A stretch of 32,000 bases of DNA from NCBI GenBank assembly GCA_942493105.1, contig OW818668.1, positions 60,001 through 92,000 on the forward strand, given 5' to 3'. Position numbers and translations under genes: made by a program. A model generated the notes under the pieces. It ran no database searches. It saw only the letters and a list, made by a program, of their open reading frames with translations, and was not told the DNA's origin. This document shows, piece by piece, positions 3,308 to 28,181 of this stretch. Position 1 is the stretch's first letter, and each line of letters starts with the position of its first letter. The stretch is from an uncultured Erysipelotrichaceae bacterium. GTDB lineage: Bacteria; Bacillota_I; Bacilli_A; Erysipelotrichales; Erysipelotrichaceae.

Positions 3308-4549
3308 TTATTCTATTACCTTTATATAGGTTCTGACCATATTCATCCAACAGTGAATCTCAAGTCGTCCTGTTTTAGTGGGTGTAAAAATGATAGGCTG
3401 AGGATTTTTTAAGATATCGATTTTTTGATTTGACCACGTCAGAATCAAAGGATTGGCACAGCCTAATGAATTCTCATACCCATCAAAGATGATCTTGACG
3501 GCTTGGTTGACTTTAACAGTATTCGCATCTAGTTTATATTGACCATTGACGATCTTGAGATGAAGGACTTGAGTTCCATCGATCACAGGGGCTTGATCAC
3601 TTGAACTGACATTTCCAATCAGTGCCATAACTGGTTGATACACGTAGGGCGACTGTAAAATGATTTGAAAGCCCATCATCGCCACAATCAAAGCTGAGAT
3701 GAGTTTAATACTTTGTCCTTTAATGGCAGATAATCGGGTTGCGAACCATTGCATCATCATAAGTGATGGTGCTGTAGTCAATCCAAAGATCAACATTACA
3801 GTACCACCCAACCACATGTTGGTGGTACTCAAGGCAATAATTTGCATCGTCTGTAAAGAACCGCAAGGCATCAGTGCATTCAATAATCCAACGATAAACG
3901 ATCCATAAGGTTTATTCTTGGTTTTAAACGTAAATGAAGGAAGTTTTACTTTAAGGATGCCTGCCATCTGTAAGGCTAAAGCCAACATCCAAATGCCTGC
4001 AAACAAAAGTAAACCATTCTTAAATCCTGTAGAAATGGTAAATACTTCGCCCAGTGCCCCTAAGATTAATCCACTAACCGTATAAGATATCAAACGCCCT
4101 ACTTGATACGACCACATCCCATTCATCGGTTTGATGCCTTTACGATTGAGCACAGTACCCATCGCAATCGATCCGCACATTCCAATACAGTGAAGTGAAC
4201 TGACTAAACCATAGGCGATGATCAGATTAAAACTAAACACTTCTTGAGTTGGATCAAACAAAAGTCTTCCATATAAGATCGATACTCCAAAATAAACGAT
4301 CATTCCAAAGCTCAACAAAGCGACAAATTTCCAAGGGAAAGTCGCTTTGACGACATGATAACCTAAAGGAGCAATTACTTTTTCAAGCTGAGGATCCTCA
4401 GGAAGGTTCTTGCCTTGGATGTAGACAAAGCCAGTTTGATAACTGGCTGAGACTTGTTTGACACCAGGCAAACGTTTGAAAGCTGAGGTTACTTTTTGTT
4501 CACAGGAAGAACAAGTCATTCCTTCAACATTGATCTTACGTTCATCCAT
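3308..4549 (-). CDS. Three-module metal protein: HMA domain + multi-pass DsbD_2/TauE-like membrane domain + C-terminal cupredoxin-like domain
   Basis: N-terminal MTCSSC heavy-metal-associated motif. Intramembrane HCIGMCG and MPCGSLQ motifs. The soluble C-terminal beta domain ends in EIHCWMNM. The TAATG overlap with the csoR stop suggests coupling. Confidence 0.8.
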   Translation of the reverse strand: MDERKINVEGMTCSSCEQKVTSAFKRLPGVKQVSASYQTGFVYIQGKNLPEDPQLEKVIAPLGYHVVKATFPWKFVALLSFGMIVYFGVSILYGRLLFDPTQEVFSFNLIIAYGLVSSLHCIGMCGSIAMGTVLNRKGIKPMNGMWSYQVGRLISYTVSGLILGALGEVFTISTGFKNGLLLFAGIWMLALALQMAGILKVKLPSFTFKTKNKPYGSFIVGLLNALMPCGSLQTMQIIALSTTNMWLGGTVMLIFGLTTAPSLMMMQWFATRLSAIKGQSIKLISALIVAMMGFQIILQSPYVYQPVMALIGNVSSSDQAPVIDGTQVLHLKIVNGQYKLDANTVKVNQAVKIIFDGYENSLGCANPLILTWSNQKIDILKNPQPIIFTPTKTGRLEIHCWMNMVRTYIKVIE

Positions 4550-4852: not shown

Positions 4853-7306
4853 TTAGGACTCCTTGAAGAAACGTAAACGTAAAGCGTTGGTGACGACACT
4901 GACTGAACTCATGGCCATCGCTGCTCCGGCAAACACAGGATTCAATAAAGGACCACCAAAATATGCAAAGACGCCTGCCGCAAACGGAATACCAATGATG
5001 TTGTAGATAAAGGCCCAGAATAGATTTTGTTTGATGTTGGTCATGGTTGCTTTTGATAAGGCAATGGCCTTAACCACATCATTTAAGTCTGATCTCATCA
5101 AGACGACATCGGCCGATTCAATGGCTACATCTGTACCACTGCCTATGGCTATTCCAGTATCTGCTTTGGTCAAGGCTACCGCATCATTGATACCATCACC
5201 TACCATCGCAACTTTATAACCTTCTGCTTTTAAACGATCGACTTCAGTTCCTTTATCTTGAGGCAATACTTCAGACATGACGATGTCTATGCCTGCTTGT
5301 TTGGCAATTGCAGCCGCTGTACGGCGATTATCACCAGTGATCATAGCAACCTTGATCCCAAGTTTTTTAAGCTTCCTAACGGTTTCTATGGCTTCTGGTT
5401 TCAAGAGATCCGCAATGGCCAATAAGCCTTGAAGTTTCCCATCAATGGCAGCCAGTAGTACAGTTTTTCCTTGATCAGATAATGCTTTGATTTGATCGGT
5501 TTCTTCATAAGATACATTGTTTTCTTTCATCCATGCTTCATTTCCAATCAGTATGCTTTGTCCATTGACTTTGGCACTTAAACCTTTTCCGCTTACTGCC
5601 ATAAAGTCGGTTGGGGAAGTCAAGGTTAAACCTTTTAACTTAGCAGCATCTAAGATCGCTAAAGCCAAAGGATGTTCGGAGACCGATTCAGCCGAAGCTA
5701 AGATCGATAATAAAGAATCTTTATCATCACCAAAACTTATGAAATCACTTAAGCTGGGTTTACCCTGAGTCAAGGTCCCTGTTTTATCAAAGATGATGGC
5801 TGTGGTATTATGCGCTTGTTCAAGAGCCTCTCCACCTTTAAACAAGATGCCCATTTGAGCTCCGCGACCAGTTCCTACCATAATGGCTGTAGGTGTCGCT
5901 AAACCTAAAGCACAAGGACAAGCAATAACCAAAACAGTTACGAAAATATTCAAGATATAGTCAAATGATTTTCCTTGCGTCATCCAAAAACCTGCAGCAA
6001 GAACCGCAATGATCATAACGATGGGTACAAAATACTGTGAAATCACATCTGCTAATTTAGCGATAGGCGCTTTTTGGCCCTGAGCATCTTCAACGAGTTT
6101 AATGATTCTGGCCAAAGCTGTGTCTTGACCTACAGCTGTTGCCTGCAAGGTCATTGATCCATTTTTATTTAAAGATCCGCCGATGACTTTATCATTGACT
6201 GTTTTATCGATGGGTAAACTTTCACCTGTCAGCATACTTTCATCCACGGCACTGTTTCCGCTGACGATGACCCCATCAACTGGAATTCGTTCACCTGGCT
6301 TAACCAGTAATACATCTTTTAAAGTGACTTCTTCAAGAGAAATCTCTTGAACTTCATCACCTACGATCAAATGGGCTGTTTTTGGAGCTAAACTCATCAA
6401 TTTCTTAATGGCTTGAGAAGTTTTGCCTTTAGAGCGCGTTTCCAACCATTTACCTAAAAGGATCAATGTGATGACCACACCTGCTGATTCAAAATATAAA
6501 CTTTCTGTGAGTTCTGTAAACCCTTGGGCAATCCTGATGGTGTTATAAGTCCCATAGATAAACGCAGCACCTGTTCCAATGGCCACCAAGGAATCCATAT
6601 TAGGCGATCCTTTTGATAGCGTTTTGAATCCTACCGTAAAGAATTTACGACCAGCAAATAGAATAGGAATACTTAAAAAGAACTGAATCAATGCGAAATT
6701 CAAAGGATTCTTATGATGATGAATGAGATCAGGCAGTTTTATATTGAGCTGTGGAAACATATGGGCCATCGCAATGATCAACAAAGGTATCGCAAAAACA
6801 GCCGCCAAAATTAACTTGGTGGTCATGGATTTCATTTCTTGAGCTTGTCTGATGCTTTCTTGATCAACCTGTTCTTTGGTTTCAATCTCGCTGGCTTTAT
6901 AGCCTGCTTTATCGACAGCCGCTTTTAAAGCGCTCATCTTGATGATGGACGGATCATAACTTAGGGTTGCTTTATTGGTGGTCAAATTGACACTGACAGA
7001 GCTGACTCCTTTTTGTTTCTTAAGGGCTCTTTCTACAGCACCGCTGCATGAAGCACACGTCATTCCTTCTATGTTTAAAACAGCATCTCGATCATGTTTG
7101 ATTTCAGATAAAGCATAACCTGCCTTATCGACAGCTTTTTGCAGTTCTTCAAAAGATAAATCTTGATCCGCTTGAATCAAGACTTTTTCTGTCGTTAGAT
7201 TGACATCGGCTTTCTTGACCCCTTCTACTTTATTAAGGGCTCTAGTGACAGCCATTGCGCAACTGGCGCAAGTCATTCCACTGACAGCATAGGTTTTTTC
7301 AATCAT
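4853..7306 (-). CDS. copA: Copper-translocating P1B-type ATPase
   Basis: Two N-terminal HMA domains (GMTCASC twice), the TM CPC motif ([11 protein letters not shown]), DKTGTLT, and [10 protein letters not shown]. Confidence 0.96.
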
Positions 7307-7606: not shown

Positions 7607-8556
7607 TATTTCTTGAAGGTTTTTGGTTTATAGAACATACGGTTTTCTAAGGCAAAGATCCTGGCTGTAAAGGTTCCTTCTTCGATCCCTGTTAAAGCCT
7701 TAGCAAACATATTCATTCTGGCATCGATATTATCGATGTAGTTTAAGATTTCAGCCTCCATGATCAAAGGCAAGACTGGTGACCCATATTCATATTCACC
7801 ATGATGAGACAAAATCAAATGTCTGATCAAAGTCACTTGTTCAGATTCAGCGACACCCAATTGTTGAGCGACTTCATTGACTTTGCTTTGCATGATTGAA
7901 ATATGTCCCACGAGTTTACCAACCAATGTATACTCGGTCAAGATCGGTCCTGATAATTCTACGACTTTACCCAAATCATGAAGTAAGATCCCGCTGATCA
8001 ATAAGTCTCTGTTTAAAGCAGGATAAAGTTCACAGAATGAATTGGCTAAATCGATCATCGCAATCACATGGGTCGCTAAACCACCTACAAAATCATGATG
8101 ATTACGTGCTGCAGCTGGATAAGTAAAGAACTTATCATTGTACTCGCTTAGGACTTTTTCAGTCACTTGGCGAATGATTGGGTCTTGTAGAGAACTAAGT
8201 GCCTCTTCTATTCTTTCATGCATGTAGGCGTCTGTTAAAGGCGTAGAAGCCACATAATCAGCTGGATTGGTTTCACTAGGATTAACAAGACTTAAGTTAT
8301 AGAGTCTAAGTTGTAATACACCTTTATAGCGTAAAACTTCACCATTGATCAAAATAACAGATCCAGGTTTTACGCCTTCTAGCATTTCTTCTTTGGCATC
8401 CCAAAGCTTTGCTTCAATTGAGCCTGTTTTATCTTGTAAGGTAAAGGATACATATGGAGCTCCATTGTTGGTAACTCCAGGATTCATTGCATTGACCAAC
8501 AAGGTCGTCATGATCTTTTCCTGTTCAATAAATGCACTAATGTTAACTCTGCTCAT
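7606..8556 (-). CDS. yhaM: 3'-5' exoribonuclease YhaM (OB-fold + HD domain)
   Basis: It appears collinear with B. subtilis YhaM, as recalled from memory: SFTLQDKTGSIEAKLWDA, YPAA..NHH.F.GGLA.H, LLHDLGK, LILSHHG, FALENR.FYKP. The start at MSRVN (8556) fits the length of known homologues. Confidence 0.9.
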   Translation of the reverse strand: MSRVNISAFIEQEKIMTTLLVNAMNPGVTNNGAPYVSFTLQDKTGSIEAKLWDAKEEMLEGVKPGSVILINGEVLRYKGVLQLRLYNLSLVNPSETNPADYVASTPLTDAYMHERIEEALSSLQDPIIRQVTEKVLSEYNDKFFTYPAAARNHHDFVGGLATHVIAMIDLANSFCELYPALNRDLLISGILLHDLGKVVELSGPILTEYTLVGKLVGHISIMQSKVNEVAQQLGVAESEQVTLIRHLILSHHGEYEYGSPVLPLIMEAEILNYIDNIDARMNMFAKALTGIEEGTFTARIFALENRMFYKPKTFKK

Positions 8557-10534
8557 TGGTCCACTCCATTTCACTAATGACTTTATTGATGTCATCACTT
8601 TCAAATCCTTTTTGCACTAGATAAGTATAAACATGATGTCGCAATGCAGATCCTTGGTATTTTTTTTCATACTTCTTATGTGCTTTATTGGCAGCATTTA
8701 AACAATTGGCCAGTTGATTACGTTCATCTTCATTGAAGTTAAGGCTCTTCATAACAAACTCGATAACATCCGTTTCATATCCTTGAGTCATAAGCTTCAT
8801 CGATAACTTCTGTTGTTTCATCTTTAGTGAAACATCCTTGATCGTAGGTTTGATCTTCTCAGCATATCTTAAAGCATTCTTAATTTCAGCTTCTTCATCA
8901 TCAACCTGACTTGCATGATCGATCAACTCTTGAGGAATCCCTTTAAGTTTAAGTGACCTAATAATCCGTTTCTTTCCTTGTAATAAGGATCTTAGATTAG
9001 TGATGGCTGAATTGGTATAACGGACATCATTGATGTAGTTTCTTTTTTCCAAGTGTTCAATCAAATCATGGATTTGATTACTCTTTAAATCAGTTTTTTG
9101 AGTTAGGAAATCTAGCATCTCGTGGCGAGTTCTGTCTTTTAAGCTTAGTTTTTTGATGCAAGCTTGGTAAGCCAAGGCAATTTTTTCATCTTCTAGCAAC
9201 TCATCGATTGTTTTTTTATCGACCATACAGAGCCGTTTCAATCCTTTCTTCTCAAAGGTTTCCAATGTGACCGTAATCTTATACGGTCCTTCTGGTCCAT
9301 CGAATGTACACTCCGCAACATCTTCTTTTAATTTGATGTTTTTAAGTAGGACGCTGTGTTTAAAGTTTTGTATGGTTCGCTGATATACTTTTTCAACGGC
9401 GATCCCAAACTCTCGATCATCATAAATACGCACTTGTTCCTTAGCCAACGTTTTCATTTCCAAACGTTTGGCTTTTGGTTTAGACAGATGATGCATGATC
9501 TTATGTGCAAATTCTTGAGTTGTTGTGAAGAAATAACCTGTCTCATCTTCAATGACAAGATCTGTCAAGACATCATCTGGTCTAGCAAATAAAGGACATT
9601 CCGCAGCTAAGGCTTCAATAAAGGTCATCCCTTGTGTTTCAGTCAAAGATGCAGATACGAATGCATCAGCAGCATGATAATAGGAGGGCACTTCTATCGA
9701 AGGAATCTTTCCGGTAAAGACAACCTTATCTTGAATATTTAATGTTTTAGTCAAGTCTTGTAAATGCTCGGCATCTGGTCCACCCCCAACAATCATCAAT
9801 TTAATATCGTTGTTTTTGAAATCCAGCAAACTAAAGCCTTCAATGACAAAGTCAATGCTTTTTTCTCTTGCAAGACGCCCTACATAGAGAATAACAAAGG
9901 TCTCTTCAGATATCCCATATTTAGCCCTCAATGTCTTTACAGCTGAAGGCGGGGTATGTTGTTTATCAAAACGTTTAAGATCTAAACCCGTTGGAATAAC
10001 TGAGATTTCACGAGTGATTCCATACCCTATTAACATTTCTTTGGTCTTTTCACTCGGAGAAATCATTGCTTGACAACTGCTACCATAAAGTTTGCTCAGT
10101 TTGGATACCGAAATCCGTGCGAATTTCTCGACAGTTTTAATATGTAACGGATTGATGTAATGGGTGTAATCTTCATAGGTCGTATGGTAAGTTGACACCA
10201 AAGGAATATCCAGTCTGTTGGCAACAAGTCGAGCAAACAAACCGATTCCAAACTCAGTATGCGCATGAATGATGTCAAGATTCATTGCCTTGATTTGTTT
10301 GATGGCTCGAATATGAACCGGAGAGCTCATAGTATACCCATACATCGACTTCAATTCAATTCCTGGCAAACGTAAGACATTATTTTCATATGAGACTTTA
10401 AAGATCTTAGGCTGATTGGTGATCACAAAAACATCATGACCTAAATTTTCAAGGGCATGTTGCAGAGTGACGATAGAAGAAACTACACCGTTGATATCCG
10501 GAGAATAAGTATCACTGAATAATCCGATGCGCAT
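8543..10534 (-). CDS. Single-ORF fusion: GT4 glycosyltransferase (monoglucosyl-diacylglycerol synthase-like) + RecX-like regulatory domain
   Basis: Residues 1 to about 385 begin MRIGLFSDTY.P..NGV, contain the EX7E motif (E299-E307, ETQGMTFIE) and have GT-B architecture. Residues from about 395 to 663 look like a Firmicute-type RecX (three-helix repeats, ...RTRHEMLDFL...YINDVRYT...LKLKGIP.ELI...). There is no stop codon or start codon at the junction. Confidence 0.85.
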   Translation of the reverse strand: MRIGLFSDTYSPDINGVVSSIVTLQHALENLGHDVFVITNQPKIFKVSYENNVLRLPGIELKSMYGYTMSSPVHIRAIKQIKAMNLDIIHAHTEFGIGLFARLVANRLDIPLVSTYHTTYEDYTHYINPLHIKTVEKFARISVSKLSKLYGSSCQAMISPSEKTKEMLIGYGITREISVIPTGLDLKRFDKQHTPPSAVKTLRAKYGISEETFVILYVGRLAREKSIDFVIEGFSLLDFKNNDIKLMIVGGGPDAEHLQDLTKTLNIQDKVVFTGKIPSIEVPSYYHAADAFVSASLTETQGMTFIEALAAECPLFARPDDVLTDLVIEDETGYFFTTTQEFAHKIMHHLSKPKAKRLEMKTLAKEQVRIYDDREFGIAVEKVYQRTIQNFKHSVLLKNIKLKEDVAECTFDGPEGPYKITVTLETFEKKGLKRLCMVDKKTIDELLEDEKIALAYQACIKKLSLKDRTRHEMLDFLTQKTDLKSNQIHDLIEHLEKRNYINDVRYTNSAITNLRSLLQGKKRIIRSLKLKGIPQELIDHASQVDDEEAEIKNALRYAEKIKPTIKDVSLKMKQQKLSMKLMTQGYETDVIEFVMKSLNFNEDERNQLANCLNAANKAHKKYEKKYQGSALRHHVYTYLVQKGFESDDINKVISEMEWTNEQS

Positions 10535-17371: not shown

Positions 17372-17445
17372 AGGGGTATAGTTCAATGGTAGAGCGCCGG
17401 TCTCCAAAACCGTCGATGTGGGTTCAACTCCTACTACCCCTGCCA
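17372..17445 (+). tRNA. trnW: tRNA-Trp (anticodon CCA), with encoded 3' CCA
   Basis: Cloverleaf: acceptor AGGGGTA/TACCCCT, D arm GTTC..GAGC, anticodon loop CTCCAAA, T arm GTGGG-TTCAACT-CCTAC. It closely resembles the B. subtilis tRNA-Trp as I recall it. There is one C:U mismatch at the top of the anticodon stem. Confidence 0.93.
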
Positions 17446-17457
17446 GTACAAAACCAT

Positions 17458-17481
17458 AAGCCACATTAAAGTGGCTTTTTT
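17458..17481 (+). terminator. Rho-independent terminator after tRNA-Trp
   Basis: AAGCCAC-attaaa-GTGGCTT followed by TTTTT. Confidence 0.8.
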
Positions 17482-17625
17482 ATTTGAAGTCCAAACATCG
17501 ATAAATTCTTTATACTTACACCACCTTATTCCCAACGAAATATTCCCTTTTTGTGTTCAAAATATTTTAGAAAATCTCAAAAGAAAATCAATTTTTTGGG
17601 TAATAATCAACCAATTCGCAAAGAT

Positions 17626-17641
17626 ACGAAAGCGTTTTCAC
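17626..17641. promoter_or_regulatory. cre-like (CcpA/LacI-family) pseudo-palindrome upstream of the 1150-aa gene
   Basis: ACGAAAGCGTTTTCAC compared with the cre consensus WTGNAANCGNWWNCAW gives 2 mismatches in either orientation. It lies about 40 nt upstream of the putative -35. Confidence 0.3.
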
Positions 17642-17681
17642 AAAACTCTCATTTTTCAGGGCTCCTATTGCTTAAAACCCG

Positions 17682-17710
17682 TTGCTCTTTTAAAAATGGC
17701 ACTATATAAT
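17682..17710 (+). promoter_or_regulatory. Putative promoter of the 1150-aa gene
   Basis: TTGCTC (17682-17687), a 17-nt spacer, then TATAAT (17705-17710), 46 nt before the ATG. Confidence 0.45.
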
Positions 17711-17755
17711 CAGTTATAGTAGGAGTATTAAAGAAACGAGAGTGAAACAAAGATC

Positions 17756-20700
17756 ATGAACCCATCAAATTTATACTTTGGAAAAGCATCATTAAACGAC
17801 GAAAATGAAACCATTGCGTTAGAGACGGTGTCTATCAACAAAGAGCCATTTTTCAAGATTAAAAACTATAATCATATGAATCCTTTCTTTATGACGATCG
17901 TGAGTGATGTTGATCATTGGATGTTTATATCCAGTACCGGTGGATTAACTTGCGGACGCAAAAATGCAGACTCCGCATTATTTCCATATTACACAGATGA
18001 TAAGATTCATGACAGTTTTGAAACCACAGGTTCACACACCATCCTCATCGTCTCAAAAGACGACCAAAAATTCCTATGGAAACCGTTTTCTCCCCATAAT
18101 AGTAATGTATATAAGATAACACGGAACCTATACAAAAATACGATCGGCAATAAAATCATGTTTGAAGAAATCAACCATGATCTAGGGCTCGCCTTCTCCT
18201 ATACATGGAAGAACAGCGATAAATTTGGCTTCATAAAAGAATCAAAAGTCGTGAACTTAGGAAAAAAAGAAATACAAGTTAAAGTCTTAGATGGGATTCG
18301 TAACATTCTTCCCTATGGAGTCAACACACAGTTACAGACGTCCCTTAGTACCCTTCTTGATGGGTATAAACGTTGTGAGTTGGTAGAAGGTGTTGGATTA
18401 GGCTTATTCACACTGAGCTCAATTCTGACTGATAAAGCAGAACCCAGTGAATCCTTAAAGACAACGACCGTTTGGTCTAAAGGACTTGATCATCCAAAGG
18501 TTCTTTTATCAGAACAGCAAATAGAAGCATTCTCTCTTGATCATGATGTTGAAACAGAACTTGACGTTAAAGGTAGACGAGGATCTTATTATGTCGTAGA
18601 TTCACTCAAACTTAAGGATAATGAATCAAAGGAATGGGTTGTTGTGGCTGAACTGAGTCGCAGTCATATTGATGTTGCGAAACTCATTAAAGCGTTGCGT
18701 GAAAATGCATCCATACTCGATGAACTGCATACTGATGTTGCTAAGGGTGATACCAATCTCAAAAAGCTCGTGTTTAATGCAGACGGTATCCAATGCACTG
18801 CTAACGAAAAAGTTAGTTATCGACATTTTTCAAATACGCTATATAACATCATGCGTGGTGGTGTATATGCTGATGGTTATAATATTGAAAGAGATGACTT
18901 TAAAGCATTTGTCCATGTTTGGAATAAAGATATTTATACTCAGCAGTTGGATTTTCTAAATAAACTCCCCACAAAAGTCAATTATAATGAATTGCTCTTG
19001 CAGGTTGAAAATTTAAACTGCAAAGACTTCGAGCGCCTCGTACTTGAATACTTACCTCTTACATTCAGCAGACGTCATGGTGATCCAAGTCGTCCATGGA
19101 ATCGATTCAGTATCGAAGTCTTCAAAGAAGACGGAAGTAAGAAGCTAAACTTTGAAGGAAATTGGCGTGATATTTTCCAAAACTGGGAAGCTTTGTCCAT
19201 GTCCTATCCGGCATTCACAGAAAGTATTATCGCTAAGTTTGTCAACGCATCAACAGCAGATGGTTATAACCCCTATCGTATTACGAAAAACGGTCTTGAT
19301 TGGGAGGCTCTAGACCCAGATGAACCATGGTCAAATATTGGCTATTGGGGAGATCATCAAATCATTTATCTGCTCAAACTTATGGAATTATCCAAAGCCT
19401 ATAATCCTAAGAAGTTGCATGATTATCTTGGTGAAGACATCTTTGTGTATGCCAATGTGCCTTATAAAATTAAAGGATTTGATGCATTGGTTGAAAATCC
19501 AAGAAATAGTATCGATTATGATTTTGAGCTTGAAAAAAACATTCATGCTAAAACTGCTACTCTTGGATCTGATGGAAAGCTGATCACTAAAAATAATCAA
19601 ATCTATAAAGTCAATTTGATGGAGAAACTTTTAGTAACATTGCTTGCTAAACTCTCTAATTATGTACCAGAAGGTGGAATCTGGATGAATACACAACGTC
19701 CAGAATGGAATGATGCAAATAATGCTTTAGTTGGTAATGGTTTATCTATGGTTACTTTGTATTATATACATCGTTATCAAACTTTTATGAATCAATTGGT
19801 TAATGAAATTGAAGGTGAACACTTTGATGTTTCAGTTGAAGTGTTTCAAATGTTTAAAGACACAACTGCAGTACTGAAAGATAGTCAACATTATCTTGGG
19901 ACAAAAATCTCTGATGATGTACGCTTTGAAATCATGGAAGCACTAGGCAGGATCGGTGAAAACTACCGTAATGCCATTTATGGTAATGGCTTTAGTGGCG
20001 AGAAATCAGGAATATCTGTTGTTGAATTAAAAGAATTCATTGAAGTGACCCTGAAACATTTAAAGGATTCCATCAAAAAGAACAGACGCGAAGATGGTCT
20101 CTATCATTCATACAATCTCATACGATTTGAAAAAGGTGCTTGCAGTATTTCCCATCTTTACGAAATGTTAGAAGGTCAGGTGTCTGTGTTAAGCTCAAAA
20201 GCTTTAGATGCTAAAGAAAGCTTATCTGTTCTAAAAGCACTCAGACATAGTCCTATTTATAGAGAAGATCAAGATAGTTATATGCTATATCCGAATCGTG
20301 AACTACCAAAATTCTTAGAGAAGAATATTGTACCTGAAGCATTGGTGATGTCTTCTGTTGTGTTAAAAGAGGAACTTAAGCATAATCGTCCACGATTTAT
20401 CGAAAAAGATGTGAATGGTAACTATCATTTCAACGGTAGATTCAGAAATGGTTATGATATTGAAGCTGCGCTTAAGGCGACAAAAGAATATAAAGATGAA
20501 GACATTAAACAGGTCAAGGAGATTTTTTCTGACTTATTTAATCACCACGCTTTCACTGGTCGATCCGGAACATTCTATAAGTATGAAGGATTAGGATCTA
20601 TCTATTGGCATATGGTGTCTAAGTTGGTTTTAGCAACACAAGAAAACTTTGACGATTCCTATACTCAAAAAGGAATGAATGAAGACTCTATAGCCCTGCT

Positions 20701-21208
20701 TAATGGTTTTAGGGCATCTAAAGCTGGACTAGGGGTTGAGAAGTCGCCAGAGTTATATGGTGCATTCCCAACCGATGCTTATTCGCATACTCCTTCCTTT
20801 GCTGGTGTTCAGCAACCAGGATTGACTGGCCAAGTCAAAGAAGACTTTATTACACGTTTTGGAGAATTAGGTGTAAAAGTCAAAAATGGTCTGGTTCATT
20901 TTGATCCAGTATTATTAGAAAAATCTGAATTCCTAAATGAAAAACAAGTATGGTCTTTACCAAGATCTAATCATGAATCAGAAACTGAAACGATTTGGTT
21001 AGAAAAGCATTCATTAGGATTTACATTCTGTACAGTACCCATCATCTATACTTTGTCAGACCATAAGAAAATCGTTGTTACTACCGTTGATGGAAGTAAG
21101 AGAAGTTTTGCAGATGCTTTAGATTTTGAAACAAGTCAAAGCTTGTTTAATCGAGATGGTAAAATCGCTAGAATTGAAGTATCTGTTGAAGGCAACAAAT
21201 TAAAATAA
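17756..21208 (+). CDS. Large cytoplasmic protein of unknown function; candidate (alpha/alpha)6-barrel glycoside phosphorylase of the GH94 clan (GH149/GH161-like size)
   Basis: An uninterrupted 1150-codon ORF with its own promoter and terminator. It has no signal peptide or TM segment. Its motifs NWRDIFQNW, GYWGDHQIIYL, RPEWNDANNAL and EGLGSIYWHM recall GH94 active-site motifs. Confidence that it is a real gene is high; the functional call is tentative. Confidence 0.8.
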   Translation: MNPSNLYFGKASLNDENETIALETVSINKEPFFKIKNYNHMNPFFMTIVSDVDHWMFISSTGGLTCGRKNADSALFPYYTDDKIHDSFETTGSHTILIVSKDDQKFLWKPFSPHNSNVYKITRNLYKNTIGNKIMFEEINHDLGLAFSYTWKNSDKFGFIKESKVVNLGKKEIQVKVLDGIRNILPYGVNTQLQTSLSTLLDGYKRCELVEGVGLGLFTLSSILTDKAEPSESLKTTTVWSKGLDHPKVLLSEQQIEAFSLDHDVETELDVKGRRGSYYVVDSLKLKDNESKEWVVVAELSRSHIDVAKLIKALRENASILDELHTDVAKGDTNLKKLVFNADGIQCTANEKVSYRHFSNTLYNIMRGGVYADGYNIERDDFKAFVHVWNKDIYTQQLDFLNKLPTKVNYNELLLQVENLNCKDFERLVLEYLPLTFSRRHGDPSRPWNRFSIEVFKEDGSKKLNFEGNWRDIFQNWEALSMSYPAFTESIIAKFVNASTADGYNPYRITKNGLDWEALDPDEPWSNIGYWGDHQIIYLLKLMELSKAYNPKKLHDYLGEDIFVYANVPYKIKGFDALVENPRNSIDYDFELEKNIHAKTATLGSDGKLITKNNQIYKVNLMEKLLVTLLAKLSNYVPEGGIWMNTQRPEWNDANNALVGNGLSMVTLYYIHRYQTFMNQLVNEIEGEHFDVSVEVFQMFKDTTAVLKDSQHYLGTKISDDVRFEIMEALGRIGENYRNAIYGNGFSGEKSGISVVELKEFIEVTLKHLKDSIKKNRREDGLYHSYNLIRFEKGACSISHLYEMLEGQVSVLSSKALDAKESLSVLKALRHSPIYREDQDSYMLYPNRELPKFLEKNIVPEALVMSSVVLKEELKHNRPRFIEKDVNGNYHFNGRFRNGYDIEAALKATKEYKDEDIKQVKEIFSDLFNHHAFTGRSGTFYKYEGLGSIYWHMVSKLVLATQENFDDSYTQKGMNEDSIALLNGFRASKAGLGVEKSPELYGAFPTDAYSHTPSFAGVQQPGLTGQVKEDFITRFGELGVKVKNGLVHFDPVLLEKSEFLNEKQVWSLPRSNHESETETIWLEKHSLGFTFCTVPIIYTLSDHKKIVVTTVDGSKRSFADALDFETSQSLFNRDGKIARIEVSVEGNKLK

Positions 21209-21236
21209 GAACATACATCATCAATTAATCAAACAT

Positions 21237-21262
21237 AAAGCAATCCATTATTGGATTGCTTT
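21237..21262. terminator. Bidirectional terminator hairpin (copy 1 of a repeated palindrome)
   Basis: AAAGCAATCCA-ttat-TGGATTGCTTT, between the convergent 1150-aa gene and the lipoprotein gene. Confidence 0.8.
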
Positions 21263-21312
21263 ATTGTAAAATCGGTTTACTTACTGTCTAAGATCTGGGT
21301 CAGTGTCACTGT

Positions 21313-22821
21313 TTAAGGAGCTAAAGTCAACAAATATTCGCGGGCATCGTTTACCCCAACGATGGGTCCTATCCACCATGTGACTGTTTCTGTTTCTGCA
21401 TCATAAATACTGATTAAAGCATCCCAATTAAGATATAGGACTGAATATTCTAGCCCATTATTATCAACCAACACATAAGCGAGAGCGACTCCCATCGGTG
21501 GAATATCAAAGGCTTGTCTCCAACCGTAAGGATTAATGAAATCTTTGATCGTTTTAGATTGGCTTTCTGTTAAGGTAACTGTGATATCTGGAACGGTCAT
21601 ATCCATAACTTCACCTTCATAAAATGAAGCGCTGACATAAGTGGCATCGGTGATCACAAGCGTTGGTGCCATGGGTATAAAATAAGAGTTCATCGTATCA
21701 TTGATGGTTTCGAAATGATCGGTATTGACTTCATATCGTTCAATCCGTTTTGGCGATTCATGATAATCAATGGTTACCACATACCCTGTATTCGTATATG
21801 AAAAGTAAAAAGTATGACCAGACTCATTAAAGAGCGCAAATTCTGCATCTAGATAATCTTCGGTTTCAGTCGTTTTTACCCATTGTGCAATATTCAACAT
21901 CGTTTTCAAATTCATGTTTTGTTCAGCAGACAAGGAAAACAAATAGGCTGGTAAAAATATATCTGTTTCATAGATAAATTGAGTCGGTCCAATATAGGCC
22001 TGTGTAAAGATGGTATCTTTCAAATCATCAACAGGTTCAATCAAATCTGCGATTTGATCTAAACGCGATAATATTGAATCACTGATGCTTAAAGGCAACA
22101 CATAAGAGGCGATGATACGAGTATCTATTGAGCAAAGAGAGACATAGGCAATATCCTCTTTGGTTTGAAATACCAATAGATTTATAGTGCCATTAACCAC
22201 TGTAAACAAAGTAAATTTCGAGTTTATTTCAGGATCCATTGAAGGCAAAGATTGAGTATATGTCCACTTATCAAATTGAAGCATTGACTTAAGTTCTGTA
22301 CTTTGGGCTGAGTCTAGATCGAATCGAGTAAAATTAGTTATAGAACCAAGTGGACCAATAAATGCCTGATTAAAACTGGAAGATTGCTTAAGATTATTTA
22401 AGACAAGCCTTGAAAAATCTAAGGATTCTATCAGTAAACTGATCGGTGAGATCATGGCCGATGTACTAGAATAATAATGATCAGGCTTTCCATCACCTTT
22501 AGTATCCACACTGATCAAGGTAAGTTGATCTTTAAATGAAAACGAATAAACGGCTCCTGAAGAACCGATCAGATAAAAGAGCACAGTTTGTTGACTAGAT
22601 CCTTGTGACTCTTTTTTCCACTGGTTCATGTTCAATTTTTCTAAGATAAAAGTTTGATGTTCTTGACTTAATGGAATGCGATCCGTTTCCAATTTATAAT
22701 CACCAGTTGAGCCAACGGCAGATTCAAACATCGTATCCAACGTAAATGAATTTGGTTTTGTACAGGCACTTATGGAAAATACGAAACAGAGTACCAAACA
22801 CCAATAAATTTTATTTCTCAT
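21313..22821 (-). CDS. Lipoprotein with four tandem ~120-aa repeats, function unknown
   Basis: Signal peptide plus lipobox (FSISAC, Cys20). A motif recurs four times: L-[STD]-x-x-[QH]-x-x-x-[LI]-[KE]-x-x-[LI]-N/Q-x-x-x-W, with the Trp at residues 68, 186, 314 and 434. The RBS is GGGAG. Confidence 0.85.
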   Translation of the reverse strand: MRNKIYWCLVLCFVFSISACTKPNSFTLDTMFESAVGSTGDYKLETDRIPLSQEHQTFILEKLNMNQWKKESQGSSQQTVLFYLIGSSGAVYSFSFKDQLTLISVDTKGDGKPDHYYSSTSAMISPISLLIESLDFSRLVLNNLKQSSSFNQAFIGPLGSITNFTRFDLDSAQSTELKSMLQFDKWTYTQSLPSMDPEINSKFTLFTVVNGTINLLVFQTKEDIAYVSLCSIDTRIIASYVLPLSISDSILSRLDQIADLIEPVDDLKDTIFTQAYIGPTQFIYETDIFLPAYLFSLSAEQNMNLKTMLNIAQWVKTTETEDYLDAEFALFNESGHTFYFSYTNTGYVVTIDYHESPKRIERYEVNTDHFETINDTMNSYFIPMAPTLVITDATYVSASFYEGEVMDMTVPDITVTLTESQSKTIKDFINPYGWRQAFDIPPMGVALAYVLVDNNGLEYSVLYLNWDALISIYDAETETVTWWIGPIVGVNDAREYLLTLAP

Positions 22822-22943: not shown

Positions 22944-24068
22944 TTAGCAGGATTTGATGCCTTTACAGTACGTCTGTAATACATCGAATTCAGGATTAAG
23001 AATCGTAATATCCGCATCTTTACCGATATCCAATGTCCCTTTTCGATCATCAACATTCAGATAAGTCGCAGGGTTGATGGTGGCTGCTTGGATGGCAGTT
23101 TTCAAAGGTAAGCGGGCATTCTTATACATATTGAATACGCCTGTATTGACATACAGTGTCGAGCCTGAAAGATTACCGTGTTCATCACGAATTCCACCGT
23201 CTGTGGTTTTTTTGCGTGTATAACCACCAAGATTTCCTTCAAAATCTTTGTAGCAACTTGAGTCTGTCACCAACATCAGTTTATCTTCGCCCTTCATACG
23301 ACCAATGATATTGACTGTTTCGAAATGCAAATGTAAACCATCTACGATGACTTCCGCAAACAAGTCATCAATGTTCATGGCTGCCCCAAATACACCAGGC
23401 TCTCTATGATGAAATGGACGCATCGCATTACCGGTATGAGTGACACCACGAAGTCCATGATCGACTGCATCACGAGTCTGTTTATAAGTTGCCCCAGTAT
23501 GAGCTACAGATACACGAACACCTTGCTTTGTGGCATATTCAAGAAATTTGAATTGATCATCATATTCTATGGCCAACGCAACGCTCTTGATACGATTGTT
23601 TGAGGCATCGATGTATTTCTGGAGAACTTCAGGATCAGGTTTGACGATGCTGTATTTATCTTGAGCTCCATTATATTGATGGGAAATGAAGTTTCCTTCA
23701 ACGTTGATTCCAAGTATTTCTGCACCTTCATGATCTTTATCCATCGATTCGGATATGATGCGTAAAGCGGCTAAATTATCGACTTCTTTTTGGGTAGACG
23801 TAGTGGCAAGAAATGAGGTGACCCCTTCTAGAGGCATATGTTTCTTCCAGAAGTTCATGGATTCTAAAGTCGGAAAATTAGCCCATGCCCCTCCATAACC
23901 GTGAGTATGAATATCTATAAAACCTGGGAATATATAATTGTCTCCATAATCTTCGTCTACTTTCTTAGTGTTATAGTCATACAAATTCGTGATCTTCCCA
24001 TCGATGAGCTCAACTTGTTTGGGAACCAGTGTTGCGTTAATCCATACTTGTGTGCTTTGAATAATCAT
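22944..24068 (-). CDS. nagA: N-acetylglucosamine-6-phosphate deacetylase
   Basis: PGFIDIHTHGYGG, EGVTSFLATT, VEGNFIS, THTGNAMRPFHHREPGV and GKDADI appear collinear with B. subtilis NagA as I recall it. Confidence 0.92.
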   Translation of the reverse strand: MIIQSTQVWINATLVPKQVELIDGKITNLYDYNTKKVDEDYGDNYIFPGFIDIHTHGYGGAWANFPTLESMNFWKKHMPLEGVTSFLATTSTQKEVDNLAALRIISESMDKDHEGAEILGINVEGNFISHQYNGAQDKYSIVKPDPEVLQKYIDASNNRIKSVALAIEYDDQFKFLEYATKQGVRVSVAHTGATYKQTRDAVDHGLRGVTHTGNAMRPFHHREPGVFGAAMNIDDLFAEVIVDGLHLHFETVNIIGRMKGEDKLMLVTDSSCYKDFEGNLGGYTRKKTTDGGIRDEHGNLSGSTLYVNTGVFNMYKNARLPLKTAIQAATINPATYLNVDDRKGTLDIGKDADITILNPEFDVLQTYCKGIKSC

Positions 24069-26501: not shown

Positions 26502-27863
26502 TTAAACAATGAACGAAATAGCCAACAAGAGTACCAGTGAAGCCAATATATACTTGGAGTTACCTTTAACGACTTGTAAAATAGGAATCTGGAAACCTGA
26601 AGATTGAGCTTGCATCGTAATGTTGACAAAGCTCATCTGGCTGCCTAAACCAACACCCATCGCAATAAATCCAATGGCTTGAAGTGGCAGACCTAATGTA
26701 ATCGCAACCGGAAGAACCAAAGTAAGGATCGTTCCGACATAAGCACCAGCAGGAACACCGATCGCAAAACCAGCCAATACAGCAACAGGAACCATCATAA
26801 CTTCAGGTGCTGATTTAGCAACACTGACGATGGCACTGAAAGCACCTGTTTCACCGATAATATTAATGAAAGCCAAGAAGATACCAACTTGGAATAAACG
26901 AGTCAAGATGTATGTTGATCCATCGATCAAAGCATCTGCAGATGCTTTCAAGCTGAATTTTGTGCATAATGCGATCAATCCAACAGTAATGAACATGTAC
27001 ATCAGAGGACCCAAAATAGGCATTTTAAGTGCTGTATTGATGTATGGTCCAGCTAATACAGCAAACAATAAGAAGAGTGCAGGAACAGTATTCAACCAAA
27101 GTTCTTTGGTCGACTTATTCTTTATTTCTTCTGTTTCTTCACTTTGGAACAAGGCTTTTCTGCGTTTTGCGCCAACAAAGCCAATAATGACAGCTATGAC
27201 AACAAATACCAACCAGTAAGGACGCATAACATTAACATAATCAGCAACAGGTAAACCTGTTAACTTAGAGATAACGCCAGTTTCCAAAGAAGCTGGAGAA
27301 GTTGTAAAGGATACAGCAGCTGCTAAACACATCGCAGCGATCAATTCAGGAATAGCTCCAACAGCAGCAAAAGCCAAAGGTGCTAAAACCATAGCGGTAC
27401 CTCCGCCAATGCCAGACATATAAGTCGCAGCAGCCATCAAAATAACGATGAAGGCTGCAAAGTATTCAACTCTTCCTTTGATTCCTCTACGAACCAAGGC
27501 TAAAGCAGAAGCATAACCGCCTGATTTAAATACAGCTGTCGCAATCGCTGAGTTGATGATTGGAACTGTAATCGACAACATGGCAGGAATAGCTGCCAAG
27601 AAGATTGTATTAGCTTGACCTAAGGTGATTCCACCAATAACCATGGCCATAACGCCACCAATCAGTCCAGCCACCAACATATTTACTTTTTTAAATAACA
27701 AAATCAAAATGACAACAATCGGTAAGACAGTCAACAAGGCATAAAAACCCGTTGGAATCGGTTTAACAGGAGCTGCCGCTGCTGCGAAAACCGTAACTTG
27801 TGAGCCAAATACAAACAGCAAAGTCGTAAACACAGTCATTGCTCCAAATAAAGTTTTTTTCAT
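26502..27863 (-). CDS. Ion-transporter (IT) superfamily permease, GntP/DsdX-like, substrate unknown
   Basis: About 12 TM segments in two halves, each with a re-entrant-loop-like motif (AAAVSFTTSPASLE; GVGLGSQMSFVNITMQ). The start is ATG 27863 after AAAGGAG, not the TTG at 27878 used in the track. The downstream amidohydrolase gene starts 23 nt after this gene's stop and has its own AGGAGG. Confidence 0.78.
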   Translation of the reverse strand: MKKTLFGAMTVFTTLLFVFGSQVTVFAAAAAPVKPIPTGFYALLTVLPIVVILILLFKKVNMLVAGLIGGVMAMVIGGITLGQANTIFLAAIPAMLSITVPIINSAIATAVFKSGGYASALALVRRGIKGRVEYFAAFIVILMAAATYMSGIGGGTAMVLAPLAFAAVGAIPELIAAMCLAAAVSFTTSPASLETGVISKLTGLPVADYVNVMRPYWLVFVVIAVIIGFVGAKRRKALFQSEETEEIKNKSTKELWLNTVPALFLLFAVLAGPYINTALKMPILGPLMYMFITVGLIALCTKFSLKASADALIDGSTYILTRLFQVGIFLAFINIIGETGAFSAIVSVAKSAPEVMMVPVAVLAGFAIGVPAGAYVGTILTLVLPVAITLGLPLQAIGFIAMGVGLGSQMSFVNITMQAQSSGFQIPILQVVKGNSKYILASLVLLLAISFIV

Positions 27864-27881
27864 TTCTTCTCCTTTCAAGAA

Positions 27882-28001: not shown

Positions 28002-28181
28002 AAACTTTAAAGCGCTTACATTTTCTCATATGTCCTACTTTCAAACAATGTTTACGATATATGAAAATAAAGCACTTCGTTAGGCAATATGCACAAATTT
28101 GATGTTCAATGTAATCTAGATTGCTTATCTATTTGTTAAAAATGCCCATATCATAAACTTTATAATCTGCTTAGCATCACA

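What the first reader, a model, noticed from the sequence alone, without database searches (positions are those of the whole stretch)
17756..21208. Monocistronic 1150-aa orphan with a GH94-clan glycoside-phosphorylase-like catalytic signature
This is the largest uncharacterised gene in the window. It has its own promoter, a cre-like box and a terminator, and it lacks a signal peptide or TM segment, so it should be cytoplasmic.

Seen in the sequence:
- FEGNW-RD-IFQNW (R471-D472, nt 19166-19171)
- GYWGDHQIIYLL (aa 529-540)
- QRPE-WND-ANNAL (W651/D653, nt 19706-19714)
- EGLGSIYWHM (aa 944-953)
- QQPGLTGQ (aa 1019-1026)

In GH94 chitobiose and cellobiose phosphorylases, an adjacent Arg-Asp pair binds substrate and the catalytic Asp sits in a D-W-N-D motif. 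The order and spacing of motifs here match that layout: an N-terminal beta region, a helical linker, an (alpha/alpha)6 barrel and a C-terminal beta domain.

The ~1150-aa length is closer to the GH149/GH161 beta-1,3-glucan phosphorylase families than to GH94 (~800 aa). Its neighbourhood (nagA, a repeat lipoprotein) would fit an intracellular glycan or oligosaccharide salvage role. It may be a new or poorly sampled phosphorylase family.
Basis: partly seen in the sequence, partly recalled or inferred. Interest (0 to 1): 0.7.

Follow-up and report, generated by a model that had tools for sequence, protein, structure and literature searches.

The report
GH149 beta-1,3-glucan phosphorylase gene

Summary
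It is not an orphan. It scores 1687 bits (cut-off 1150) against the NCBIfam equivalog model "1,3-beta-D-glucan phosphorylase, GH149 family". It aligns end to end, at 50.7% identity, with the crystallised GH149 enzyme Pro_7066 (PDB 6HQ6). An AlphaFold model superposes on 6HQ6 with TM 0.86. GH161 (TM about 0.58) and GH94 (TM 0.5 or less) come well behind.

Every active-site residue named for Pro_7066 is present: R471/D472, W651/N652/D653, E944 and H952. Each is invariant in 31 of 31 family members from several phyla.

The founding GH149 paper (2018) already lists about 20 Firmicutes members. One comes from the MAG that holds a 77%-identical relative of this protein.

The gene is monocistronic and cytoplasmic, as claimed. 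The nagA/lipoprotein link is not supported. GH149 genes stand alone in 6 of the 7 Bacillota contexts examined; in the seventh, sugar genes lie 2.7 kb downstream.

One small extra: a 20-nt LacI/CcpA-like box (17626-17645) is invariant at -126 to -129 from the ATG in every close relative found.

Verdict: the chemistry was read correctly, the family is known, interest is low.

The parts
17372..17445 (+). tRNA-Trp (CCA). The upstream neighbour on the same strand; it marks the 5' limit of the GH149 transcription unit.
   Evidence: ARAGORN; Rfam tRNA, 63.6 bits
17458..17477 (+). Terminator-like hairpin plus U-run after the tRNA. It insulates the GH149 gene from upstream transcription.
   Evidence: Terminator scan; RNA fold dG -10.1 kcal/mol, z -3.1
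17626..17645 (+). Conserved 20-nt box ACGAAAGCGTTTTCACAAAA. Candidate operator of the LacI/CcpA (cre-like) type; regulator unknown.
   Evidence: One mismatch to TGNAANCGNTTNCA. Invariant in the window and its four distinct Erysipelotrichaceae-clade relatives, within otherwise diverged DNA, at -126..-129 from the ATG. Three more metagenome instances sit upstream of GH149 genes. Unique in the window, even at 3 mismatches.
17682..17710 (+). Putative sigma-A promoter: -35 TTGCTC (17682-17687), 17-nt spacer, -10 TATAAT (17705-17710).
   Evidence: Read from the sequence. Largely conserved in relatives. Not flagged by the consensus scan because the -35 matches only 3/6. No transcript data.
17756..21208 (+). 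GH149 family beta-1,3-glucan (laminari-oligosaccharide) phosphorylase, 1150 aa plus stop codon.
   Evidence: NCBIfam NF058639.1, 1687 bits against a cut-off of 1150, covering model positions 2-1133 of 1134. PDB 6HQ6, 1224 bits, 50.7% identity over 1126 aa. Foldseek TM 0.86/0.87 to 6HQ6.
17756..18664 (+). N-terminal beta-sandwich domain (aa 1-303, mapped from Pro_7066 residues 1-303).
   Evidence: Domain limits from PMC6771811, transferred through the alignment. The AF2 model is all strands up to residue 302.
18665..18778 (+). Helical linker (aa 304-341).
   Evidence: PMC6771811; the AF2 model has helices 304-316 and 320-341.
18779..20869 (+). (alpha/alpha)6 catalytic domain (aa 342 to about 1038). 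It includes the GH149-specific insertions Dom 1 (about aa 370-429) and Dom 2 (about aa 851-931).
   Evidence: The alignment to 6HQ6 is contiguous through both insertions, with only 1-3-residue indels. Domain limits from PMC6771811.
19166..19171 (+). R471-D472, the RD motif that recognises the sugar 1-phosphate (-1 subsite). Equivalent to Pro_7066 R470/D471.
   Evidence: Alignment; PMC6771811; invariant in 31/31.
19706..19714 (+). W651-N652-D653, the catalytic loop. D653 is the predicted general acid/base, equivalent to Pro_7066 D653.
   Evidence: Alignment; PMC6771811; invariant in 31/31.
20585..20611 (+). E944 (equivalent to Pro_7066 E951, which contacts the donor-mimicking ligand) through H952 (equivalent to H959, predicted phosphate recognition).
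   Evidence: Alignment; PMC6771811; invariant in 31/31.
20870..21205 (+). C-terminal jelly-roll beta domain (about aa 1039-1150).
   Evidence: PMC6771811; alignment; the AF2 model has strands 1040-1145.
21233..21267 (.). Strong hairpin between the two convergent genes. Likely a bidirectional terminator; the U-run is better on the minus strand.
   Evidence: Terminator scan, flagged on the minus strand; RNA fold dG -18.2 kcal/mol, z -6.8, 0 of 200 shuffles as stable.

Best explanation
The gene encodes a cytoplasmic, inverting glycoside phosphorylase of CAZy family GH149 (clan GH-Q, together with GH94 and GH161).

**Mechanism, inferred from the characterised family members.**
- Inorganic phosphate attacks C1 of the non-reducing-end glucose of a beta-1,3-linked gluco-oligosaccharide (laminaribiose and longer).
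- D653 in the WND loop protonates the leaving glycosidic oxygen.
- R471/D472, W651 and E944 hold the glucosyl unit in the -1 subsite. H952 lies by the phosphate site.
- The products are alpha-D-glucose 1-phosphate and a chain one unit shorter. The reaction is reversible.
- Glucose 1-phosphate would enter glycolysis through phosphoglucomutase, which saves one ATP per glucose compared with hydrolysis.

**Gene organisation.**
- The gene is transcribed alone from its own promoter.
- In this Erysipelotrichaceae-like lineage a conserved LacI/CcpA-type box lies about 45 nt upstream of the -35 element. This suggests sugar-responsive control.

**Shown here:** family membership, fold, conservation of all catalytic residues, monocistronic layout, conservation of the box.

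**Inferred:** substrate and linkage, direction of the reaction in vivo, source of the substrate (imported laminari-oligosaccharides through transporters encoded elsewhere), and what the box does.
For: - **Curated model.** NCBIfam equivalog GH149_beta_1_3: 1687 bits against a cut-off of 1150, full model coverage.
- **Solved structure, by sequence.** phmmer against the PDB gives 6HQ6/6HQ8 (Pro_7066) at 1224 bits, residues 17-1146 aligned. Identity is 50.7% over 1126 positions with 14 gap columns.
- **Solved structure, by fold.** The AF2 model (pLDDT 72.5, pTM 0.72) matches 6HQ6 with TM 0.86/0.87 over 1147 columns. GH161 gives 0.55-0.58 and GH94 0.34-0.51 (query-normalised).
- **Active site.** PMC6771811 names W651/N652/D653, R470/D471, E951 and H959 in Pro_7066. 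The aligned residues here are identical and invariant in 31 of 31 members. The 31 come from Bacillota, Bacteroidota, Proteobacteria, Acidobacteria, Verrucomicrobiota, Neomarinimicrobiota and one archaeal MAG.
- **Family biochemistry.** All three GH149 enzymes assayed so far (EgP1, Pro_7066, GH149_H) are beta-1,3-glucan phosphorylases.
- **Location.** No signal peptide or TM segment.
- **Transcription unit.**
Against: - No GH149 enzyme from Bacillota has been assayed. The nearest characterised enzyme is only 50.7% identical, so substrate and chain-length preference are extrapolated.
- The surface oligosaccharide-binding site of Pro_7066 (E990, Y993, E994) is not conserved here; the aligned residues are N983, R986 and A987.
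- Neither the 32-kb window nor 6 of the 7 Bacillota contexts examined places a sugar transporter, laminarinase or beta-glucosidase near the gene. The exception is Fusibacter, where LacI, GH1 and ROK genes begin 2.7 kb downstream. The Gram-negative clusters described in PMC5827456 do have such neighbours. The source of the substrate is therefore unknown.
- The AF2 model has low confidence (pLDDT < 50) in exactly the active-site segments, so it adds nothing to the sequence alignment about pocket geometry.
Confidence: 0.86

Rival explanations
1. The fold and chemistry are GH149, but the substrate is different. The stand-alone genes of Bacillota might phosphorolyse another beta-linked glycan, for example a beta-1,3-GlcNAc or mixed polymer. 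Acholetin phosphorylase does this within GH94.
For: - nagA lies 1.7 kb away.
- The host lineage (Erysipelotrichaceae-like) is related to Acholeplasma, where the clan member AchP acts on poly-beta-1,3-GlcNAc.
- No laminarin-utilisation genes are nearby.
- The surface binding-site residues of Pro_7066 are not conserved here.
Against: - Every named -1-subsite and catalytic residue is identical to Pro_7066 and invariant across the family. The family alignment includes a Formosa sp. Hel1_33_131 MAG homolog; GH149-containing laminarin PULs are described in that genus.
- The score is far above the cut-off of an equivalog-level model.
- nagA is on the opposite strand, separated by a variable gene. It is absent from the five non-syntenic Bacillota contexts.
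Confidence: 0.06
2. The enzyme is the same, but its role is endogenous. It would turn over, or build from Glc1P, a cell-made beta-1,3-glucan (a storage or envelope polymer) rather than salvage imported laminarin fragments.
For: - The gene stands alone in 6 of the 7 Bacillota contexts, with no transporter or GH partner.
- The eukaryotic family member EgP1 comes from Euglena, which stores a beta-1,3-glucan.
- The reaction is reversible in vitro.
Against: - No beta-1,3-glucan synthase lies in the window.
- The papers read here interpret clustered phosphorylases as catabolic.
- Transporters can be encoded elsewhere in the genome, as PMC6484121 notes for incomplete ABC systems.
Confidence: 0.07
3. 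One reading: this is a new or poorly sampled phosphorylase family, distinct from GH94, GH149 and GH161.
For: - Pfam has no model that hits it; the best hit has E 0.14 and is irrelevant.
- Most database relatives are named 'hypothetical protein'.
Against: - Curated GH149 model at 1687 bits.
- 50.7% full-length identity to the crystallised GH149 enzyme.
- TM 0.86 to that structure.
- Firmicutes members are listed in the founding paper.
Confidence: 0.01

Closest known systems
Pro_7066, metagenomic (Flavobacteria-like) GH149 beta-1,3-oligoglucan phosphorylase, PDB 6HQ6/6HQ8
   Same: - Same length class: 1150 aa here, against 1156 numbered residues in Pro_7066.
- Same four-domain order, including the GH149-only insertions Dom 1 and Dom 2.
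- 50.7% identity end to end.
- Identical WND, RD, E and H active-site residues.
- No targeting peptide.
- Predicted fold TM 0.86.
   Different: - The surface oligosaccharide-binding residues E990/Y993/E994 are N/R/A here.
- The host is a low-GC Bacillota (Erysipelotrichaceae-like), not a Bacteroidota.
- The gene is stand-alone, not in a PUL or transporter cluster.
- This protein has not been assayed.
EgP1, Euglena gracilis GH149 beta-1,3-glucan phosphorylase
   Same: Same family and same catalytic residues. Pro_7066 and EgP1 are 45% identical and both act on beta-1,3-glucans.
   Different: EgP1 is eukaryotic, carries a predicted N-terminal targeting peptide, and prefers short acceptors. It was not compared directly here.
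GH161 beta-1,3-glucan phosphorylases (PapP; PDB 9gy9, 9qqk, 9h8v)
   Same: Same clan GH-Q, same overall fold (TM about 0.55-0.63) and same linkage specificity. GH161 is common in Firmicutes.
   Different: - Only about 14% identity.
- Sequence matches are partial (E about 1e-14 with the single sequence, 1e-23 with the family profile).
- GH161 needs a substrate of DP >= 3 and lacks Dom 1 and Dom 2.
- This protein is not a member.
GH94 phosphorylases (laminaribiose phosphorylase PsLBP 6GGY/6GH2; cellobiose and chitobiose phosphorylases 2CQS, 1V7V)
   Same: Same clan, same catalytic Asp in a WND loop, same RD motif, same phosphate-site His and same (alpha/alpha)6 barrel.
   Different: - No detectable sequence match, even with the family profile at E <= 0.01.
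- No Pfam GH94 domain hit.
- Structural identity about 10%, query-normalised TM 0.34-0.51.
- GH94 proteins in these hits are 780-990 aa and lack Dom 1 and Dom 2.
- This protein is not a member.

Membership tests
GH149 (CAZy; NCBIfam NF058639.1) | Significant full-length sequence similarity to the founding members (CAZy families are defined by sequence). | tested here: met
   1687 bits against a curated cut-off of 1150, covering model positions 2-1133 of 1134. 1224 bits and 50.7% identity to Pro_7066.
GH149 (CAZy; NCBIfam NF058639.1) | Domain architecture: N-terminal beta-sandwich, helical linker, (alpha/alpha)6 catalytic domain carrying the Dom 1 and Dom 2 insertions, C-terminal jelly roll. 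| tested here: met
   Near-gapless alignment through all domains. The secondary-structure order of the AF2 model matches. TM 0.86/0.87 to 6HQ6 over 1147 columns.
GH149 (CAZy; NCBIfam NF058639.1) | Catalytic Asp in a WND loop; RD motif; the Glu equivalent to E951; the phosphate-site His. | tested here: met
   W651/N652/D653, R471/D472, E944 and H952 align to the residues named in PMC6771811. All are invariant in 31/31.
GH149 (CAZy; NCBIfam NF058639.1) | Pi-dependent, inverting phosphorolysis of beta-1,3-gluco-oligosaccharides that yields alpha-Glc1P. | not testable with these tools
   Needs an enzyme assay. All three assayed family members have this activity.
GH149 (CAZy; NCBIfam NF058639.1) | Homodimer, as in the Pro_7066 crystal and gel filtration. 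| not tested
   Only a monomer was modelled.
GH149 (CAZy; NCBIfam NF058639.1) | Surface oligosaccharide-binding site (E990, Y993, E994 of Pro_7066). A feature of Pro_7066 and its close relatives, not of the whole family. | tested here: not met
   The aligned residues are N983, R986 and A987. The paper itself reports poor conservation in the more distant bacterial GH149 sequences.
GH94 | Sequence membership: Pfam GH94 catalytic or N-terminal domains, or similarity to cellobiose, chitobiose or laminaribiose phosphorylases. | tested here: not met
   No Pfam hit at E <= 1 apart from an irrelevant one. The family profile finds no GH94 chain in the PDB at E <= 0.01. The only resemblance is at fold level, query-normalised TM 0.34-0.51 at about 10% identity.
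GH161 | Sequence membership: similarity to PapP or OcP1. | tested here: not met
   Only partial matches at E about 1e-14 and 1e-23 with the profile. 14% identity and TM 0.55-0.58.
CcpA-dependent cre site (regulatory element) | Match to the cre consensus in a position where it can act on a promoter. | tested here: inconclusive
   The box has one mismatch to WTGNAANCGNWNNCW and to TGNAANCGNTTNCA. It is invariant in close relatives. It is centred about 85 nt upstream of the inferred transcription start. Sites of this quality are not enriched in the window. No binding data.

The most novel reading that the evidence does not exclude
The stand-alone GH149 genes of Bacillota could be a functionally distinct subgroup. 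In this lineage they sit behind a clade-specific, invariant LacI/CcpA-like operator. They might act on an endogenous or non-laminarin beta-1,3-glycan, in the way acholetin phosphorylase serves a cell-associated polymer in Acholeplasma. Alternatively they might run in the synthetic direction, rather than salvaging imported laminarin fragments as in the Gram-negative PULs.
Probability: 0.07. Interest if true: 0.5.

Novelty: new member of a known kind. Interest (0 to 1): 0.13.

Why it matters
It matters little beyond annotation. The gene can be named "1,3-beta-D-glucan phosphorylase, GH149 family" instead of "hypothetical protein", the label most of its Bacillota relatives still carry.

Two modest points are worth keeping.

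1. No Gram-positive GH149 enzyme has been assayed. In Bacillota these genes mostly lack the transporter and GH partners that explain their role in Gram-negative bacteria. Where their substrate comes from is therefore an open, though small, question.
2. GH149 enzymes are used as biocatalysts for beta-1,3-glucan synthesis. A divergent member that lacks the surface binding site could have different chain-length behaviour.

Tried and rejected
- **Pfam scan.** Only an irrelevant sub-threshold hit (cREC_REC, E 0.14). Pfam appears to have no GH149 model. This probably explains the "hypothetical protein" labels and may have made the gene look like an orphan.
- **Exact-sequence look-up of the source contig.** Not on record. 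The cluster look-up gave no name or accession. The species-representative genome scan did not contain the source genome; the best hits were Erysipelotrichaceae MAGs at 77-78%.
- **First structure job.** It was repeated with database proteins only.
- **Regulon hunt with the 20-nt box.**
  - No second copy in the window, even at 3 mismatches.
  - No copy in the fetched loci away from GH149.
  - The metagenome scan gave 6 hits. Three lie upstream of GH149 genes. The other three are probably chance: one is inside a 1585-aa ORF and two are in ORF-poor DNA.
  - No partner genes were identified.
- **Rfam scan.** It looked for a leader RNA or riboswitch in the 310-nt upstream region and found only the tRNA.
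- **Self-BLAST of the 502-aa lipoprotein.** No internal repeats detected.
- **Composition check for horizontal transfer.** The gene has GC 36.2% and GC3 0.30, inside the range of its neighbours (GC3 0.27-0.41). There is no signal.
- **The 82-aa ORF at 17471-17719.** It overlaps the promoter region and has no family hit, so it was treated as spurious.


Full report
- The ORF at 17756-21208 (+) starts with ATG, encodes 1150 aa, and has no in-frame start further upstream.
- All five motifs sit at the residues and nucleotides given: FEGNWRDIFQNW 466-477, GYWGDHQIIYLL 529-540, QRPEWNDANNAL 647-658, EGLGSIYWHM 944-953 and QQPGLTGQ 1019-1026. R471/D472 are nt 19166-19171 and W651/D653 are nt 19706-19714.
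- The motifs are not chance. I aligned 31 family members translated from genomes of Bacillota, Bacteroidota, Proteobacteria, Acidobacteria, Verrucomicrobiota, Neomarinimicrobiota and one archaeal MAG. In that alignment 44 of the 54 motif positions are invariant, against 225 of 1150 positions overall.

**2. What is it?** It is not an orphan.
- Pfam finds nothing. That is probably why most database relatives are called "hypothetical protein".
- The NCBIfam equivalog model NF058639.1, "1,3-beta-D-glucan phosphorylase, GH149 family", matches at 1687 bits. Its curated cut-off is 1150, and the match covers model positions 2-1133 of 1134.
- A sequence search of the PDB finds 6HQ6/6HQ8, the GH149 enzyme Pro_7066, at 1224 bits with residues 17-1146 aligned.
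- From the printed alignments, identity is 50.7% over 1126 positions with 14 gap columns.
- GH161 structures match only in pieces (E about 1e-14). GH94 structures do not match at all, even with a family profile.
- I modelled the protein with AlphaFold2 from 43 homologs (mean pLDDT 72.5, pTM 0.72).

| Foldseek match | TM, query / target | Identity |
|---|---|---|
| GH149, 6HQ6 (1147 columns) | 0.86 / 0.87 | 49% |
| GH161 | 0.55-0.58 / 0.60-0.63 | 14% |
| GH94, laminaribiose phosphorylase | 0.51 / 0.62 | 11% |
| Other GH94 (cellobiose, cellodextrin, chitobiose and related phosphorylases) | 0.34-0.42 / 0.39-0.57 | about 10% |

That order is exactly what the searches show, and the family is GH149.

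**3. Active site.**
- The Pro_7066 structure paper (PMC6771811) names these residues:
  - R470-D471, the sugar-1-phosphate recognition motif;
  - E951, which contacts the donor-mimicking ligand together with R470;
  - H959, the predicted phosphate-recognition residue.
- The aligned residues here are W651-N652-D653, R471-D472, E944 and H952. Each is invariant in 31 of 31 sequences.
- Domain limits transfer directly: beta-sandwich 1-303, helical linker 304-341, (alpha/alpha)6 domain 342 to about 1038, and jelly roll from about 1039 to 1150. The catalytic domain carries the two GH149-specific insertions, Dom 1 at about 370-429 and Dom 2 at about 851-931. The secondary structure of the model follows the same order.
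- One difference: the remote surface oligosaccharide-binding site of Pro_7066 (E990, Y993, E994) reads N983, R986, A987 here. The authors already noted that this site is poorly conserved in the more distant bacterial members.
- A caveat on the model: its low-confidence stretches (434-472, 507-531, 645-659, 930-949, 994-1027) are the active-site segments themselves. The case for the catalytic geometry therefore rests on the alignment to the crystal structure, not on the model.

**4. How it most likely works.**
- All three GH149 enzymes assayed so far (EgP1 from Euglena, Pro_7066 and GH149_H) are inverting beta-1,3-glucan phosphorylases. They convert (Glc-beta-1,3)n plus Pi into alpha-Glc1P and a chain one unit shorter, reversibly, and they accept substrates down to the disaccharide.
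- This protein has the whole catalytic apparatus, and has no signal peptide or TM segment by a simple hydropathy check. It is therefore best read as a cytoplasmic laminari-oligosaccharide phosphorylase that feeds Glc1P into central metabolism.
- Family membership, fold and catalytic residues are shown here. Substrate, direction of the reaction in vivo and the origin of the substrate are inferred.

**5. Transcription unit.** The "monocistronic" claim holds.
- tRNA-Trp (17372-17445, +) is followed by a hairpin plus U-run at 17458-17477 (dG -10.1).
- A TTGCTC-17 nt-TATAAT promoter lies at 17682-17710. The consensus scan missed it because the -35 hexamer matches only 3 of 6.
- The next gene downstream converges. 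A strong hairpin lies between the two at 21233-21267 (dG -18.2, z -6.8).
- The cre-like box is real: ACGAAAGCGTTTTCA at 17626-17640, one mismatch from the consensus. Judged by the window alone it would be unremarkable, with 27 sites of that quality against 18.8 +/- 5.3 expected.
- Comparative data change that picture:
  - The 20-mer ACGAAAGCGTTTTCACAAAA is invariant in the window and its four distinct Erysipelotrichaceae-clade relatives (77-84% protein identity).
  - It always lies 126-129 nt before the ATG, within DNA that is otherwise diverged.
  - Three more metagenomic instances lie in the same place.
  - It is absent upstream of GH149 genes in other Bacillota and in Bacteroidota.
- It is therefore a genuine, lineage-specific cis-element of the LacI/CcpA type. 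Its regulator and its effect are unknown. It is centred about 85 nt upstream of the inferred transcription start.

**6. Neighbourhood.**
- nagA is confirmed at 22944-24068 (-), scoring 269.9 bits against a cut-off of 225.65.
- The 502-aa protein between nagA and the GH149 gene has a lipoprotein signal (…FSISAC). It has no family hit and no repeats detectable by self-BLAST.
- Neither neighbour is linked to the GH149 gene.
  - The 84%-identical relative is syntenic: YhaM, GT4-RecX, PFOR, MATE, GDPD, PyrR, GH149, then nagA and EamA. In it the lipoprotein slot holds a baeRF-family gene on the other strand.
  - The five other Bacillota contexts share no neighbours with this one. They are Bacillaceae IKA-2, the Firmicutes GWF2_51_9 lineage, Alkalibacterium, Amphibacillus and Fusibacter.
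- The rest of the window holds housekeeping genes and no glycan-utilisation genes. They include PFOR, a MATE transporter, PyrR, CopA, carbamate kinase, a cytosine-deaminase-like amidohydrolase and a lactate permease.
- In 6 of the 7 Bacillota contexts, GH149 has no sugar transporter or GH gene nearby. In Fusibacter, LacI, GH1 and ROK genes begin 2.7 kb downstream.
- This contrasts with the ABC-transporter/LacI clusters, TonB clusters and PULs described for Gram-negative bacteria. It is the only mildly unexplained aspect of the locus.

**7. Comparison with what is known, and novelty.**
- GH149 was established in 2018 (PMC5827456). Its structure was solved in 2019.
- The supplementary sequence list of the founding paper already contains about 20 Firmicutes entries. 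They include Alkalibacterium, Halolactibacillus, Amphibacillus, Bacillus selenitireducens and B. beveridgei. They also include "Firmicutes bacterium GWF2_51_9", the MAG that holds a protein 77% identical to this one.
- The family is large. At least 8000 database proteins match at E <= 1e-10.
- This is an uncharacterised but entirely typical new member of a known kind.
- The suggestion of a new phosphorylase family is refuted.

**8. Residual alternatives.**
- A substrate switch inside the GH149 fold is conceivable, for example to a GlcNAc-containing beta-1,3-glycan. The precedent is acholetin phosphorylase in GH94. Nothing positive supports it, and the invariant -1 subsite argues against it.
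- An endogenous or biosynthetic role is equally unsupported. It cannot be excluded without the whole genome and experiments.

**Verdict.** Low interest (0.13). The finding is a correct functional guess about a gene that existing curated resources already explain.

Noticed in passing
window 17626-17645; L001 9871-9890; L004, L011, L084, L089, L090, L092 at the equivalent place: A 20-nt box, ACGAAAGCGTTTTCACAAAA (LacI/CcpA-like), is invariant at -126..-129 from the GH149 start codon in every Erysipelotrichaceae-clade relative found. It is absent upstream of GH149 genes in other Bacillota and in Bacteroidota. No other regulon member could be found.
   Followed up: yes
window 17756-21208; L001, L003, L084, L085, L086, L087: GH149 genes stand alone in 6 of the 7 Bacillota contexts, with no adjacent transporter or GH gene. 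In Fusibacter (L087), LacI, GH1 and ROK genes lie 2.7 kb downstream. The published Gram-negative clusters and PULs do have such partners, so the substrate source in Bacillota is unexplained.
   Followed up: partly
window 8543-10534 (-); L001 707-2698 (-): A single 662-aa ORF fuses a GT4 glycosyltransferase to a complete RecX. The GT4 part resembles alpha-monoglucosyldiacylglycerol synthase (292 bits, below the 400 cut-off). The RecX part scores 146.8 bits, also below its cut-off of 240. The fusion has the same length in the 84% relative. Its 5' end overlaps the YhaM ORF by about 60 nt.
   Followed up: partly
window 21313-22821 (-): A 502-aa predicted lipoprotein (signal …FSISAC) has no Pfam or NCBIfam hit and no repeats detectable by self-BLAST. 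In the closest syntenic relative this slot holds a baeRF-family gene on the other strand, so the position is variable.
   Followed up: partly
window 26502-27878 (-) and 28006-28021: A 457-aa ORF has no Pfam or NCBIfam hit. Just upstream of it, between this ORF and arcC, lies a near-palindromic cre-like site, TGTAAGCGCTTTAA. It is more symmetrical than the box at the GH149 gene.
   Followed up: no
window aa 434-472, 507-531, 645-659, 930-949, 994-1027 of the GH149 protein: The AlphaFold model has pLDDT < 50 in exactly the most conserved active-site segments, while the variable periphery is confident. A possible cause, not tested, is the shallow alignment (62-84% identical to the query), in which these columns never vary.
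   Followed up: no
L032 8001-11351: A GH149 homolog 52% identical to the window protein lies on a contig of a Candidatus Brockarchaeota (archaeal) MAG. The family reaches beyond bacteria and euglenids, or the contig is mis-binned.
   Followed up: no
window 3308-4549 (-) next to CopA 4853-7306 (-): A 412-aa protein joins an N-terminal heavy-metal-associated (CopZ-like) domain to a DsbD_2 membrane domain. It lies beside the copper P-type ATPase gene.
   Followed up: no
window 17471-17719 (+): An 82-aa GTG-initiated ORF spans the tRNA terminator, the conserved box and the promoter. It has no family hit and is probably spurious.
   Followed up: partly
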